A DNA stretch of 64,000 nucleotides, from NCBI RefSeq assembly GCF_988242995.1, contig NZ_OZ547043.1. One strand, given 5' to 3'. Within the stretch, counting starts at the first letter, position 1, and each line of letters opens with the position of its first letter. Position numbers: made by a program. Positions 27,201 through 30,200 of this stretch are shown piece by piece.

Positions 27201-30200
27201 ATTCGACATGTATCATATCTGTTTAATGCTATCTCCCGATAACGATTTCTCTTTGGTTTATTATATGGGCCAATGCCAGATGGGCTTAAAAAACATTAAA
27301 ATGGCCACTGAGTTATTTAATACTGTCGTAACCTATAGTCAAAATGAAAAAATTAAAGAGATGGCTACTGCTTATCTTGAACTTTTGACAGCCAATACCG
27401 AAGAGGAAGTTCAAACAGAGTGAGTCGGCAAAATGAACATAAACGGAAAAAACGCTTCTTTTACGTCTGAAGAGTTAGCCAGGAAATATCATGAGGAAGC
27501 CACGGTTGATTTAAAAAATAACCATGGCGATAAAATAAATGAGAAGAATAACAATAAACACATTACTTACTTTCCCGTTGATGCCATTTTAGATGGGAAT
27601 AAACATCTGCCATGAATTAAATAAAAAAGAATTAATTACACCCGATGATAGCTTAAAAAGGAGGTGAATTATGTCGGCACCGATTACGGGACAAACGATC
27701 ACATTTGAACAAATCAGCGAAACATTGCGTACACAGTATAGCGATGCGGAAAAAAGACTGCAGGACAGCAACAAAACGCAAGTTGATCCCATGCGGCTTA
27801 ATAAAAACCCGAAATCCCTTGATAATGATATTCGCGCTCGTCTTGAAAACAAACCGATGCTTGCTCCGCCTGCAATGCAGGTTTCAGATTCCGACAACGC
27901 CACTACAGCAAAGACGAACGATGCCCGCCTGACAATGATTTTGGGTAATCTAACAGGCATTGCCGATCAGGATATTACAACACGTTTGCATAATAACCTT
28001 GACAGCACCCTGCTTCGACACGAAATGGCACATAATAAGTTTCGTGAATTAAGTGACGCTTACTCATCGTCATTAGATTCCGCGCAAAAAGCCGACGACA
28101 TCATGCATCAGGCCAATAATAATTACAATGCGGTCGATAAAAAGGTGCAATCGCTGGAGAAAAAAGTCAACACATTGAATCAAGAGCTCTCGCAACTGCA
28201 ACCTGGCGATCCGCAATATAATAAAGTACTGACGCAAAAAAATGCGGCTGAAAAAACACTCACGCTGTCATTACAAAAAAAATCGTTAGCTGAGCAATCG
28301 TTAAATACAGCCATTATGGATGCTGATGCTGCGATCGGCCAAAGTATGGAAATTTTTGACGAAATTCAACAGCAAGAACAGATTAATAACTTCACCACCA
28401 ATATTTGCCTGACGCAAGAAAACCAGAAAAACAGAAACGCGACAGCCACATTTATCCTTTTGATTACCTCAGTAATGGAAGTTATTGGTGATACCAATTG
28501 CGACTCTATTAAAAATCAATCTGAGGTAATGAAAGAGATTAACCATGTCAGGGAAAATAAACTCAATGAAACAGCGCGTAGCTATACTACATGGACAAAA
28601 GTTTTAAACATTATTAATGAGGTCGTTACTGTAGTTACATTTGCCGTAAGTGCAGCCTTAATTGTGATTGGTATTGTCGCAGCAGTTCCAAGTGCTGGGG
28701 CAAGCTTTGCTGGAGCGCTGGCACTAATTGGAGGAATCGCGGGGGCAGTAGTATTAGGTGTTGATATTATTTGTCAAATCACTCTGGGTACCACGGCTAC
28801 CGGTTGGATTTTGGGAAAACTAACTGAAGGTCTTGCGGGTATTATTTCTAAATATGACCCCACACTACTCGCAATCTGCGCTCTTCTGGACGCCTTGGGT
28901 GTCCAACAAACGACTATTGATTTAGTACAAGATATTTACTCATCTGCAGCCGCTTCTATTGTTATGGTAACATTAATGATTGGTGCAACATTAATTTGTT
29001 CAGTAGCAATAAGTGAACTTGTAAAGGCACTCTCAAAAACTGCCGCCGAAGAAATCACAAAAGAAATAACTGACAGTATAAAATCCACCGTGGAATCTAT
29101 GATCAAGTCAGTATCAAAAAAAATCATGTCAGCATTAAATTTTCTCGGTGACAAAATAAAAGCATCATCACAATTTATAATGATATTTGCAAAAATAACT
29201 ATTCTTCTTGAAAAAATTGCCTCGGGCGTTTGTACAATAATTACATCGAGCATGAATCAATACGCTGCCAGTAAGTCTGCAGATATCGAAATTCTACAAC
29301 AAGATATAAGCAATCTATCAAAAACGCGCGAACAAATGCTTACAGTGATGCAAAGGATAGATAAAACCGTCGAACAAGAGGTAGCTCAGATGGTGCGTGT
29401 ATTACAACACCGAACTGAAGCTTTGAAATTTGCTTCTCATTCTATCGTATAAGAGGATTCAAAAATGACCAATAATATTAGCAATATAAACAATACAGCT
29501 CATAATAAGAATCTCGATAAAACAACATTCGATGAACAACCTGCTTATGAAACAAGAGTATCACAAGCTAAAAAAATACTGCAAAGTTTTGCGCCAAATG
29601 ATATTAAAGTTGATACAAATACTAAATTTATTAGTCTGATAGAGTCTGTCCGTGCTCTCTCTCCTGAATTACAATGTAAGGTACTAGATGGTCTTAATTA
29701 TGCTAAGAATACACTACATAATATAAATCAAAATTCTGCCATAGCAACAAAATCATCCTGTCAGTCTACCGAGTCAATAGAGAAAACCATAACATTTAAT
29801 ATTCTCGATATGTTAGATAATTTGACGATGAGACAACAGAACATTATGGAGGCCTTTCTAAGAGTCTTTACATCAATGTACAATGCCTCTGCCAAGGCTG
29901 ATGCTAGCATGAGCATCGTTTTTGAACAGCTTGTCCATCTTCAGAGTAGCGAAACAAAAAATGCTTCTTGGGCAAATTTTGCAGGTGCATTAGCAGGCTC
30001 AGCTATTAATGCTACGGGAGCTGTATTTATGGCAGGTGCAGAACTTGCGAAGCCCGCGGGAAAGATAGATGATATCGCAGAAAACCAGGAACAAAATACA
30101 GACAAACCAGATAGCCAAACTCGGATAAAATCAAAAGAAGATATGGCAAATGCGAAAGCCAGACTTGCCGAAATAGAAAATCAACAAAAAGATTTATCAA

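What the first reader, a model, noticed from the sequence alone, without database searches (positions are those of the whole stretch)
27433..27615. Unexpected 60-codon ORF between the chaperone and translocator genes
In SPI-1 and the Shigella ipa operon, as I recall them, the chaperone gene is followed almost directly by the SipB/IpaB-family gene. Here a 247-bp spacer holds a 60-aa hydrophilic ORF starting 10 nt after the eicA stop. It may be a small accessory protein, a remnant, or a chance ORF in AT-rich DNA.
Basis: inference. Interest (0 to 1): 0.35.

Follow-up and report, generated by a model that had tools for sequence, protein, structure and literature searches.

The report
Small orphan ORF between eicA and eipB
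A 60-codon reading frame between the chaperone and pore-protein genes of an accessory E. coli type III secretion island is real and is conserved only over its last 15 codons, but it is broken in about a third of strains, so it is at most a dispensable small accessory gene.

Summary
The ORF is there as described: 27433-27615 (+), ATG 10 nt after the eicA stop, in a 247-nt spacer before eipB. The window is the E. coli selC/eip island. Only about 1% of shuffled spacers give an ORF this long.

- **Distribution:** 741 of 5,426 complete E. coli genomes carry the region. RefSeq already calls the ORF a hypothetical protein. Papers list six eip genes and do not name it.
- **Homology:** it is an orphan, with no family, structure or distant homologue.
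- **Selection is split:** codons 1-45 evolve neutrally (8 synonymous, 36 nonsynonymous variants). Codons 46-60 (YFPVDAILDGNKHLP) show 3 synonymous and no nonsynonymous changes, and conservation stops at the stop codon.
- **Breakage:** two independent frameshifts at an A6 tract occur in 146 and 82 genomes (31%), with eicA and eipB intact in the one genome of each allele that I inspected.
- **Relatives:** Shigella and Providencia have 5- and 2-bp junctions. eip and Ysa-type loci have 120-280-bp spacers. Two hold small genes that copy the translocator's N-terminal chaperone-binding region, and the E. albertii ORF carries the PxLxxP motif. The E. coli ORF shows no such similarity.

Best reading (about 45%): a translated, fast-evolving, dispensable peptide whose C-terminal motif is the functional part. 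Main rival: an incidental ORF over a cis-acting element.

The parts
26926..27423 (+). eicA, class II (SycD/LcrH/SicA-type) T3SS chaperone, 165 aa
   Evidence: Pfam TPR_3 E=2e-17. PGAP calls it 'SycD/LcrH family type III secretion system chaperone'. pN/pS is 0.05.
27420..27422 (+). GTG overlapping the eicA stop (GTGA), out of frame with the ORF in this window
   Evidence: Gene callers use it as the start in 64-aa variants P0052 and P0075, which differ from the 60-aa forms by a frameshift near the 5' end. The same GTGA or ATGA overlap is the start of the small ORFs in E. albertii, L036, L038 and Ysa.
27433..27615 (+). The 60-codon ORF of the finding (RefSeq 'hypothetical protein', e.g. WP_001024521.1, which is 100% identical to this window's product)
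   Evidence: The Shine-Dalgarno pairing is weak, -4.8 kcal/mol against -12.9 for eipB. Nine protein clusters, all Escherichia where a source is named.
27433..27567 (+). Codons 1-45: variable part with no coding signature
   Evidence: 8 synonymous and 36 nonsynonymous variants in 19 haplotypes, against an expected synonymous fraction of 0.178. 28% of sites vary. pN/pS for codons 1-42 is 0.84.
27513..27518 (+). A6 tract, a frameshift hotspot
   Evidence: The A5 allele (L016, L011, L004) matches exactly in 146 genomes. The A7 allele (L027) matches exactly in 82 genomes. PGAP marks both 'frameshifted'.
27530..27539 (+). ATAAA-ATAAA tandem repeat
   Evidence: Metagenome contig L004 has lost one unit on the A5 background. 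That restores the frame and gives the 58-aa P0005.
27568..27615 (+). Conserved block: codons 46-60 (YFPVDAILDGNKHLP) plus TGA
   Evidence: 3 of 48 sites vary, against 28% upstream and 22% downstream. All 3 changes are synonymous in this frame, but only 1 of 3 and 0 of 3 in the other frames. None of the 15 residues varies among the common protein haplotypes, against 20 of 45 upstream (Fisher p=0.001). A 65-mer covering codons 43-60, the stop and 8 further bases is identical in 525 of 727 genomes.
27616..27670 (+). 55-nt untranslated gap holding the eipB Shine-Dalgarno sequence (GGAGG 27660-27664)
   Evidence: 9 of 41 sites vary in 27616-27656, and 0 of 17 in 27657-27673. SD pairing is -12.9 kcal/mol.
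27671..29452 (+). eipB, SipB/IpaB-family major translocator, 593 aa, with its own chaperone-binding motif PMLAPP at residue 62
   Evidence: Pfam T3SSipB and SseC. Motif scan. pN/pS is 0.30 within E. coli. Identity to E. albertii EipB is 27%.

Best explanation
The ORF is a genuine, lineage-restricted small gene of the eicA-eipBCD cluster of the E. coli selC/eip island.

**Mechanism I commit to, with what is shown and what is inferred:**
1. Ribosomes that finish eicA re-initiate 10 nt downstream at ATG 27433, which has a weak Shine-Dalgarno sequence. This is inferred.
2. They make a hydrophilic peptide of about 7 kDa. Its first 45 residues are unconstrained, which is shown. That it is largely disordered is suggested only by low-confidence models.
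3. Only the invariant C-terminal 15 residues, YFPVDAILDGNKHLP, are kept by selection. The block is shown to be constrained. That the constraint acts on the amino acids is only suggested.
4. That C-terminal segment is the working part. It is most likely a short docking motif for a secretion-system partner, with the adjacent chaperone EicA the first candidate. This is inferred by analogy. In related loci the gene at this position copies the translocator's N-terminal chaperone-binding region, and the E. albertii ORF carries the PxLxxP chaperone-binding motif at the same distance from its N-terminus.
5. The gene is dispensable. Slippage at an A6 tract has inactivated it twice, in 31% of carriers. 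This is shown.
For: **The ORF itself**
- It is unlikely by chance (1.0% of shuffles).
- It is present in 741 of 5,426 complete E. coli genomes. PGAP listed a 'hypothetical protein' under the match in all 29 full-length rows of a spread sample; two of the haplotype classes in that sample proved on inspection to be marked 'frameshifted'.
- It is also found in cryptic-clade Escherichia at 77-80% amino-acid identity with an identical C-terminus.

**Constraint on the last 15 codons**
- Codons 46-60 show 3 synonymous and 0 nonsynonymous variants. The expected synonymous fraction is 0.22, so 3 of 3 has a binomial probability of about 0.011 (my arithmetic). The same changes would be nonsynonymous in the other frames.
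- pS of the C-terminal part (0.094) equals that of eicA (0.100), while its pN is 5-6 times lower than in the N-terminal part.
- Conservation ends at the stop codon: 27616 varies and 22% of the next 41 sites vary.
- Rare one-step protein variants hit the C-terminal block at the rate expected from mutation (4 of 17), but none is common. Among common haplotypes 0 of 15 C-terminal positions vary against 20 of 45 N-terminal ones (p=0.001).
- One contig on the A5 frameshift background carries a second 5-nt deletion that restores the frame.

**The same position in relatives**
- E. albertii has a 70-codon ORF (0.6% of shuffles) with a strong Shine-Dalgarno sequence (-8.8 kcal/mol) and a GTGA overlap with the chaperone stop.
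- L038 (94 aa) and L036 (81 aa) start on the chaperone stop and are related to the translocator's N-terminal chaperone-binding region (E=2e-7 and 9e-10; HMM E=3e-7 and 1e-3).
- PxLxxP is present in the E. albertii and L036 small ORFs.
Against: - Codons 1-45 have no coding signal at all.
- 228 of about 741 carriers have a frameshift before the conserved block. eicA is intact, and eipB is not flagged as a pseudogene, in the one genome of each allele that I inspected.
- The case for constraint on amino acids rests on three substitutions. All three also fit a predicted local RNA fold: one lies outside the helices, one in a loop, and one turns G-C into G-U.
- There is no detectable homology to anything. 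That covers Pfam, NCBIfam, PDB, an HMM search of 1.84 billion representatives, the E. albertii and Ysa small ORFs, and translocator N-termini (hhalign probability 0.1%).
- The E. coli ORF has no PxLxxP motif.
- AlphaFold models of EicA-linker-ORF fusions leave the ORF at pLDDT 27-37 for E. coli and 44-54 for E. albertii, so they give no sign of docking.
- A third eip-like locus (L009) keeps a 255-bp spacer with no ORF.
- There is no translation or proteomic evidence. No paper in the searched library names the ORF.
Confidence: 0.45

Rival explanations
1. The ORF is incidental: a neutral leftover frame in an AT-rich spacer, possibly the decayed remnant of a duplicated translocator 5' end as in Ysa-like loci. 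On this reading the conserved 48-nt block is a cis-acting DNA or RNA element for eipB expression, such as an activator site or promoter upstream region, or part of a 5' leader structure.
For: - Codons 1-45 evolve neutrally, and variable-site density there (28%) is at least that of the noncoding gap (22%).
- Two frameshift alleles reach 20% and 11% of carriers, with the neighbouring genes not flagged as broken in the genomes inspected.
- Spacer length is kept (247, 255 and 263 bp) across three eip-type loci with no sequence similarity, and one of them has no ORF.
- The predicted fold pairs 27573-27585 with eipB codons 2-7 and contains a hairpin at 27590-27609. All three substitutions in the block are compatible with it.
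- In L019 and Y. enterocolitica Ysa the homologous small gene is visibly decayed.
Against: - All 3 changes in the block are synonymous in the ORF frame only (binomial probability about 0.011), and conservation stops exactly at the stop codon.
- pS in the block is not reduced relative to eicA.
- The RNA fold is not better than shuffles (z=-1.7, 14 of 200).
- There is no Rfam hit, no + strand sigma-70-like promoter and no terminator.
- No motif is shared with the region upstream of eicA (local alignment p=0.21) or with the regions upstream of the translocator in five related loci.
Confidence: 0.33
2. The ORF is a cis-acting leader (upstream ORF). Its nascent C-terminal peptide, ending Leu-Pro-UGA, slows or arrests the ribosome at termination 55 nt upstream of the eipB start. 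This would tune eipB translation or transcript continuation, in the manner of TnaC or SecM.
For: - Constraint is confined to the last 15 residues, the part that would lie in the ribosomal exit tunnel at termination. It ends at an invariant Pro-UGA, and the N-terminus is free to vary.
- The distance from the ORF stop to the translocator ATG is similar in three loci: 55 nt in E. coli, 54 in E. albertii and 50 in Ysa.
- C-terminal Pro before a stop codon is a known poor termination context (my own knowledge).
Against: - The E. albertii, Ysa, L036 and L038 small ORFs do not end in Pro-stop and share no C-terminal motif. In L036 and L038 the gap is 26 and 42 nt.
- A ribosome at the stop codon would not reach the predicted stem that holds the eipB Shine-Dalgarno sequence, and the fold is not significant.
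- The gap is A/T-rich, not C-rich as for a Rho loading site.
- The ORF does not have the TnaC (W12, D16, P24) or SecM motif spacing (by inspection, from my own knowledge).
- Frameshift alleles are common.
Confidence: 0.1
3. The ORF is pure chance: it is neither translated nor overlapped by any constrained element, and the low diversity at its 3' end is sampling noise.
For: The ORF is short, sits in AT-rich horizontally acquired DNA, and has a weak Shine-Dalgarno sequence. No homologues were found.
Against: - The shuffle probability is 1%.
- Block site density is 3 of 48 against 47 of 176 in the flanks. Among common haplotypes 0 of 15 positions vary against 20 of 45 (p=0.001).
- E. albertii has an independent 70-codon ORF at the same position (0.6% of shuffles).
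Confidence: 0.07

Closest known systems
Chaperone-translocator junction of classical SPI-1-family operons (Shigella ipgC-ipaB; Providencia sicA-sctE; Salmonella sicA-sipB, recalled from memory only)
   Same: The gene order is the same: class II TPR chaperone, SipB/IpaB-type major translocator, SipC-like protein, tip protein. EipB carries the chaperone-binding motif (PMLAPP) at residue 62, as IpaB has PELKAP at residue 65.
   Different: Those junctions are 5 and 2 bp with no room for a gene. Here there are 247 bp and a 60-codon ORF.
Small genes after the chaperone gene in Ysa-like loci found here (L038, 94 aa; L036, 81 aa). I found no description of them in the papers I read, though I did not search specifically for Ysa-locus ORFs.
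   Same: They occupy the same position, have a start at or next to the chaperone stop, are of similar size, and are followed by a short untranslated gap before the translocator.
   Different: These are demonstrable paralogues of the translocator N-terminal chaperone-binding region. The E. coli ORF shows no such similarity (hhalign probability 0.1%) and lacks PxLxxP.
E. albertii eip-locus ORF (70 aa; hypothetical protein BAT37120.1 and related entries)
   Same: It lies in the same island at the same chromosomal site (setC-yicL-yicS-eicA), in the same position, with a 263-bp spacer and a 54-nt gap to eipB.
   Different: There is no significant sequence similarity. It starts at a GTG overlapping the eicA stop and has a strong Shine-Dalgarno sequence. 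It contains PELIKP. The loci as a whole are very diverged: EicA 71%, EipB 27%.
Regulatory leader or arrest peptides (TnaC, SecM) - my own knowledge of these families
   Same: It is a small ORF upstream of a gene, with a variable N-terminus and a constrained C-terminal stretch ending in Pro next to the stop codon.
   Different: It has no match to their motifs and no supported RNA switch or Rho site. Arrest has not been tested, and the feature is not shared by the small ORFs of related loci.

Membership tests
Paralogue of the SipB/IpaB-family translocator N-terminal (chaperone-binding) region, as in the L038 and L036 small genes | Collinear sequence similarity to translocator residues about 20-90 | tested here: not met
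   For the E. coli ORF: HMM of 13 translocator N-termini gives E=2.1, hhalign of the ORF profile against the N-terminal profile gives probability 0.1%, and the best Smith-Waterman z is 2.3 among 13 tests. Positive controls: L038 E=3e-7, 2e-7 and 9e-10; L036 E=1e-3.
Paralogue of the SipB/IpaB-family translocator N-terminal (chaperone-binding) region, as in the L038 and L036 small genes | P/VxLxxP chaperone-binding motif (named in PMC4068993 and PMC4536800) | tested here: not met
   The E. coli ORF has none. The motif is present in EipB (PMLAPP62), IpaB (PELKAP65), the E. albertii ORF (PELIKP47; 3% of shuffles) and the L036 ORF (PTLKKP50). The E. coli block has only a looser hydrophobic pattern, F47-x-V49-x-x-I52, seen by inspection.
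Paralogue of the SipB/IpaB-family translocator N-terminal (chaperone-binding) region, as in the L038 and L036 small genes | Located directly after the class II chaperone gene, with its start at or next to that gene's stop | tested here: met
   ATG 27433 is 10 nt after the eicA stop. A GTG overlaps the stop, is out of frame here, and is used in variants P0052 and P0075.
Paralogue of the SipB/IpaB-family translocator N-terminal (chaperone-binding) region, as in the L038 and L036 small genes | Binds the chaperone's TPR groove | tested here: inconclusive
   AlphaFold2 single-chain fusions EicA-(GGGGS)6-ORF leave the ORF at pLDDT 27-37 for E. coli and 44-54 for E. albertii. No contact or PAE output was available, the alignment was shallow, and no positive control was run.
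Nascent-peptide arrest or leader peptides (TnaC/SecM type) | Constraint limited to the C-terminal 15-20 residues, with Pro at the arrest or termination site | tested here: met
   Codons 46-60 show 3 synonymous and 0 nonsynonymous variants, against 8 and 36 upstream. Leu-Pro-TGA is unchanged in all 19 DNA haplotypes. One rare protein variant has P60R (P0040, 18 contigs).
Nascent-peptide arrest or leader peptides (TnaC/SecM type) | A downstream RNA structure or Rho site whose state depends on the stalled ribosome | tested here: inconclusive
   The minimum-free-energy fold of 27540-27700 partly sequesters the eipB Shine-Dalgarno sequence and AUG, but z=-1.7 (14 of 200 shuffles fold as well). No covariation is available, and the stem begins about 16 nt beyond the stop codon.
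Nascent-peptide arrest or leader peptides (TnaC/SecM type) | Ribosome stalling demonstrated | not testable with these tools
   This needs toeprinting or ribosome profiling.
Any curated protein or RNA family | A match above threshold | tested here: not met
   Pfam none, NCBIfam none, PDB sequences none at E up to 10, Rfam nothing near threshold. The HMM search of 1.84 billion representatives found only a frameshifted variant of the ORF itself (P0007), a 38-aa fragment and one repetitive 498-aa protein at E=3e-4.

The most novel reading that the evidence does not exclude
The eip/Ysa branch of SPI-1-type secretion systems carries a previously undescribed class of small genes, translationally coupled to the class II chaperone gene. 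They derive from the translocator's N-terminal secretion-signal and chaperone-binding region. They would act as small chaperone ligands: decoys that occupy EicA/SycB until secretion starts, and so time the release of the chaperone as a transcriptional co-activator. On this reading the E. coli 60-aa ORF is a highly diverged member, and its invariant C-terminal block is what remains of the binding segment.
Probability: 0.15. Interest if true: 0.6.

Novelty: new member of a known kind. Interest (0 to 1): 0.3.

Why it matters
The eip island supplies the putative translocators for ETT2, the second type III secretion system of E. coli, whose function is still unclear. Published descriptions list six eip genes (PMC11068852), so a seventh translated product next to the chaperone would belong in functional studies.

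If the small ORFs in this position across eip and Ysa loci are chaperone ligands, they would add a regulatory layer to the chaperone/co-activator circuit known from Shigella and Salmonella. If instead the conserved block is a cis element, it marks where eipB expression is controlled.

In either case the common A5 and A7 alleles are natural mutants ready for testing. As it stands, this is a modest result: an orphan ORF that RefSeq already annotates, with mixed evidence for function.

Tried and rejected
- **Genome-collection scan with a chaperone alignment.** The patterns were too strict and gave only two loci. One was an E. coli contig mis-binned as Collinsella. I replaced this with exact-protein look-ups.
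- **Homology of the E. coli ORF.** It shows no significant similarity to the E. albertii, Ysa, L036 or L038 small ORFs: BLASTP found nothing, and shuffle p values were 0.05-0.8. The likeness of the N-termini (MNINGK against MNSINK) is largely forced by the ATGA/GTGA overlap.
- **Remnant of a known gene.** Searches of Pfam, NCBIfam, PDB, 5.8 billion clustered proteins and 1.84 billion representatives found nothing.
- **Chaperone docking by AlphaFold fusion.** Confidence was low for both species.
- **RNA element.** No Rfam hit. The folds of the E. coli, E. albertii and L009 leaders were not better than shuffles (z=-1.7, -1.0 and +0.3).
- **Internal promoter or terminator.** No + strand sigma-70-like site and no terminator in the spacer.
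- **Repeated regulatory box.** A 12-mer shared with the region upstream of eicA (GATGGGAATAAA against GATGGGCATAAA) looked promising, but the local alignment is at chance level (p=0.21). No motif is shared among six translocator-upstream regions. The match to the MxiE box, recalled from memory, is only about 8 of 16.
- **Repeats in the spacer.** Nothing of note.
- **Literature.** No paper in the searched library mentions the peptide or its accessions. Sheikh et al. 2006 is not held.
- **-1 ribosomal frameshifting at U_UUA_AAA.** I considered this as a rescue for the A5 allele. The heptamer is there by inspection, but I could not test the idea and see no obvious stimulator.
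Full report
**Where the finding sits.** The window is the E. coli selC region. It holds tRNA-Sec at 22351-22445, then setC, yicL, nlpA and yicS, then the eip (selC-B) island.

The island runs as follows:
- eicA, 26926-27423
- the ORF, 27433-27615
- eipB, 27671-29452
- eipC, 29465-30595
- eipD, 30639-31988
- eilA, 32191-33888
- the inverse autotransporter gene iatC/eaeX, 33940-45069 on the - strand

The literature describes the island as six genes and does not name the ORF (PMC11068852; PMC7058095). RefSeq's PGAP pipeline annotates it as 'hypothetical protein'.

**Observation.** It is confirmed. The ATG is the tenth base after the eicA TGA. The ORF has 60 codons plus TGA. The spacer is 247 nt at 33% G+C. 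A + strand ORF this long occurs in 1.0% of dinucleotide-preserving shuffles of the spacer. The Shine-Dalgarno pairing is weak, -4.8 kcal/mol, about the top 10-14% of background. For comparison it is -8.7 for eicA and -12.9 for eipB. Translation would therefore depend mainly on re-initiation after eicA.

**Distribution.**
- The region is in 741 of 5,426 complete E. coli genomes.
- The protein search found nine clusters, all Escherichia where a source is named.
- Cluster members include cryptic-clade Escherichia (Escherichia sp. HH41S and sp. 94.0001) at 77-80% identity.
- Nothing else matched: Pfam, NCBIfam, PDB sequences, Rfam, and an HMM search of 1.84 billion representatives. That search returned only a frameshifted variant of the ORF itself (P0007), a 38-aa fragment and one repetitive protein.

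The ORF is an orphan.

**Selection.** I assembled 19 DNA haplotypes from complete genomes and metagenome contigs.

| Region | Synonymous : nonsynonymous variants | Variable sites | pN/pS |
|---|---|---|---|
| eicA 3' end (240 nt) | 18 : 9 | not computed | 0.05 (whole gene) |
| ORF codons 1-45 | 8 : 36 | 28% | 0.84 (codons 1-42) |
| ORF codons 46-60 (site count includes the stop) | 3 : 0 | 6% | 0.15 (codons 43-60) |
| Gap after the stop (27616-27656) | not applicable | 22% | not applicable |
| eipB 5' end (228 nt) | 18 : 9 | not computed | 0.14 (first 150 codons) |

- In codons 1-45 the synonymous share (18%) equals what mutation alone would give (17.8%). The other two frames look the same. There is no coding signal there.
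- The three changes in codons 46-60 are TAC/TAT, GGG/GGA and CTG/TTG. They are synonymous in the ORF frame only. In the other frames 1 of 3 and 0 of 3 would be. With a synonymous fraction of 0.22, the binomial probability of 3 out of 3 is about 0.011 (my arithmetic).
- pS in the block (0.094) matches eicA (0.100), so synonymous sites are not specially protected.
- Conservation ends at the stop codon.

Among 43 distinct full-length protein variants plus the window's own sequence, the common haplotypes differ at 20 of 45 N-terminal positions and at 0 of 15 C-terminal positions (Fisher p=0.001). Rare one-step variants fall 13 to 4 between the two parts, which is what uniform mutation predicts. 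New changes therefore arise in the block but do not spread. This favours a constraint on the encoded peptide. It rests on few events, however, and all three nucleotide changes also fit a predicted RNA fold.

**Frameshifts.** The A6 tract at 27513-27518 has slipped twice.
- The A5 allele gives a stop after 34 codons. Its exact 66-mer is in 146 genomes.
- The A7 allele gives a stop after 29 codons. Its exact 66-mer is in 82 genomes.

Together they make up 31% of carriers. In the genome of each allele that I inspected, eicA is intact. eipB is intact in the A5 genome, and its visible 5' part is not flagged as a pseudogene in the A7 genome.

Three points soften that conclusion:
- The eip island decays elsewhere too. 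eipB is frameshifted in strain Z1002, eipC in CE10, and eicA is cut by IS2 in MFDS1022581.
- The tract is a mutational hotspot.
- One A5 contig (L004) has also lost one unit of the ATAAA-ATAAA repeat at 27530-27539, which restores the frame. This is a single event at a slippage-prone repeat, so it is weak evidence.

**Related loci.**

| Locus | Spacer, chaperone to translocator | Small ORF |
|---|---|---|
| Providencia plasmid | 2 bp | none |
| Shigella pCP301 | 5 bp | none |
| L037 | 32 bp | none |
| L035 | 34 bp | none |
| L012 | 46 bp | none |
| Y. enterocolitica Ysa (L021) | 121 bp | 24 codons, ATGA overlap |
| L023 | 171 bp | none of note |
| E. coli eip (window) | 247 bp | 60 codons |
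| L009 (third eip-like locus) | 255 bp | none over 30 codons |
| E. albertii eip (L005) | 263 bp | 70 codons, GTGA overlap |
| L036 | 268 bp | 81 codons, ATGA overlap |
| L019 | 282 bp | decayed |
| L038 | 323 bp | 94 codons, ATGA overlap |

- *E. albertii.* It carries the island at the same chromosomal site. EicA is 71% identical and EipB only 27%. Its 70-codon ORF starts at a GTG overlapping the eicA stop and has a strong Shine-Dalgarno sequence, -8.8 kcal/mol. Only 0.6% of shuffles give an ORF that long.
- *L009.* This third eip-like locus sits in an assembly labelled E. coli. It keeps a 255-bp spacer without an ORF.
- *L038 and L036.* These Ysa-like loci have called genes of 94 and 81 aa that start on the chaperone stop. 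The L038 product aligns collinearly with residues 23-85 of its own translocator (E=2e-7) and residues 35-86 of L019's (E=9e-10). An HMM of translocator N-termini finds it at E=3e-7 and the L036 product at E=1e-3. The aligned stretch covers the PxLxxP chaperone-binding motif and the LLLGxL segment.
- *L019 and Ysa.* The L019 spacer is a decayed DNA-level copy of the L038 gene. Y. enterocolitica Ysa keeps only the Shine-Dalgarno sequence, the ATGA overlap and 24 codons.
- *E. albertii motif.* Its ORF carries PELIKP, next to IpaB's LIPELKAP. A PxLxxP motif appears in 3% of shuffles of that ORF, and hhalign gives only E=0.13.
- *The E. coli ORF.* It has no such similarity (hhalign probability 0.1%) and no PxLxxP. 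Its invariant block does begin at residue 46. That is the same distance from the N-terminus as the motif in the other small ORFs (47 in E. albertii, 50 in L036, 53 in L038). This is a lead, not a test.

**How it most likely works.** I commit, at about 45%, to a translated but dispensable small gene.
- *Shown:* the ORF and its persistence; neutral drift of residues 1-45; the constrained block ending at the stop codon; loss by slippage in a third of carriers.
- *Suggested:* the constraint acts on amino acids.
- *Inferred:* translation by re-initiation after eicA; action through the C-terminal 15 residues as a docking motif; EicA as the first candidate partner, by analogy with the translocator-derived small genes of relatives.

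AlphaFold fusions did not support docking, with ORF pLDDT of 27-37. I hold the partner claim at no more than about 20%.

**Rivals.**
1. *An incidental or remnant ORF over a cis-acting element for eipB, about 33%.* It fits the neutral N-terminal part, the common frameshifts, the conserved spacer length and the ORF-less L009. Against it are the synonymous-only pattern, the boundary at the stop codon, and the lack of any supported promoter, RNA family, significant fold or shared motif.
2. *A cis-acting leader or arrest peptide, about 10%.* It fits the constraint confined to the C-terminus, the Pro-UGA ending, and the similar 50-55-nt gaps in three loci. The relatives do not share the ending, and no RNA switch is supported.
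3. *Pure chance, about 7%.*

**Novelty and interest.** RefSeq already annotates the ORF as a hypothetical protein, and no function is known. Small genes coupled to the chaperone gene recur in eip and Ysa-type loci, and at least two of them copy the translocator's chaperone-binding region. For the E. coli ORF itself the evidence is mixed and the likely biological weight is small. I score interest at 0.3.

Noticed in passing
L038 2998-3282; L036 3004-3249: In two Ysa-like T3SS loci from sequencing-run and metagenome assemblies, a called gene of 94 or 81 aa starts on the chaperone gene's stop (ATGA). It is related to the N-terminal chaperone-binding region of the downstream SipB/IpaB-type translocator (BLASTP E=2e-7 and 9e-10; HMM E=3e-7 and 1e-3). 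I found no description of such genes in the papers I read.
   Followed up: partly
L005 6519-6731 (E. albertii eip locus): A 70-aa ORF with a GTG start overlapping the eicA stop and a strong Shine-Dalgarno sequence. It contains PELIKP, the PxLxxP class II chaperone-binding motif, in a context like IpaB's LIPELKAP. It is nearly invariant across E. albertii. The hhalign match to translocator N-termini is only E=0.13.
   Followed up: partly
L019 4500-4781; L021 4498-4622: The L019 spacer is a decayed DNA-level homologue of the L038 small gene. Y. enterocolitica Ysa keeps only a strong Shine-Dalgarno sequence (GAGGAGG), an ATG overlapping the sycB stop, and 24 codons.
   Followed up: partly
window 27513-27518: The A6 tract has slipped in both directions: A5 in 146 genomes and A7 in 82 genomes. 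The sequence U_UUA_AAA around it is also a slippery-heptamer-like motif. A -1 ribosomal shift there would restore the frame in the A5 allele. I did not test this.
   Followed up: partly
window 27526-27528 (codon 32 of the ORF): This codon carries at least six different residues across variants (G, V, A, T, D, F, plus S in the frameshifted lineage), far more than its neighbours. It could be a mutational hotspot or diversifying selection.
   Followed up: no
window 27616-27670; L005 6732-6785; L021 4573-4622: The distance from the small ORF's stop to the translocator ATG is 55, 54 and 50 nt in E. coli, E. albertii and Ysa, despite no sequence similarity. It is 42 and 26 nt in L038 and L036.
   Followed up: partly
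window 27671-29452 (eipB): eipB is unusually diverged within E. coli. The eicA-eipB stretch is only about 90% identical between allele groups, and pN/pS is 0.30 against 0.05 for eicA. EipB is only 27% identical to E. albertii EipB, although EicA is 71% identical.
   Followed up: no
L009/L010 (GCA_009799345.1, GCA_910664965.1): A third, very diverged eip-like cluster (chaperone 55% identical, translocator 28% identical, tip protein, HilA-like regulator) lies next to an invasin-like gene in assemblies labelled E. coli. It has a 255-bp, 25% G+C spacer with no ORF.
   Followed up: no
L011 (JAIJJM010000039.1): A contig of a MAG labelled Collinsella sp. encodes an EicA 99% identical to E. coli's and carries the A5 frameshift allele of the eip locus. 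It is almost certainly mis-binned.
   Followed up: no
L013, L014, L034: Other eip genes are broken in individual strains: eipC is frameshifted in CE10, eipB is frameshifted in Z1002, and eicA is truncated by IS2 in MFDS1022581. The small ORF is intact in all three.
   Followed up: no
window 29465-30595 (eipC): The 376-aa product in the SipC/IpaC position has no Pfam match at E up to 1. The products in the same position in L019, L036 and L038 have faint, weak and clear IpaC_SipC hits respectively.
   Followed up: no
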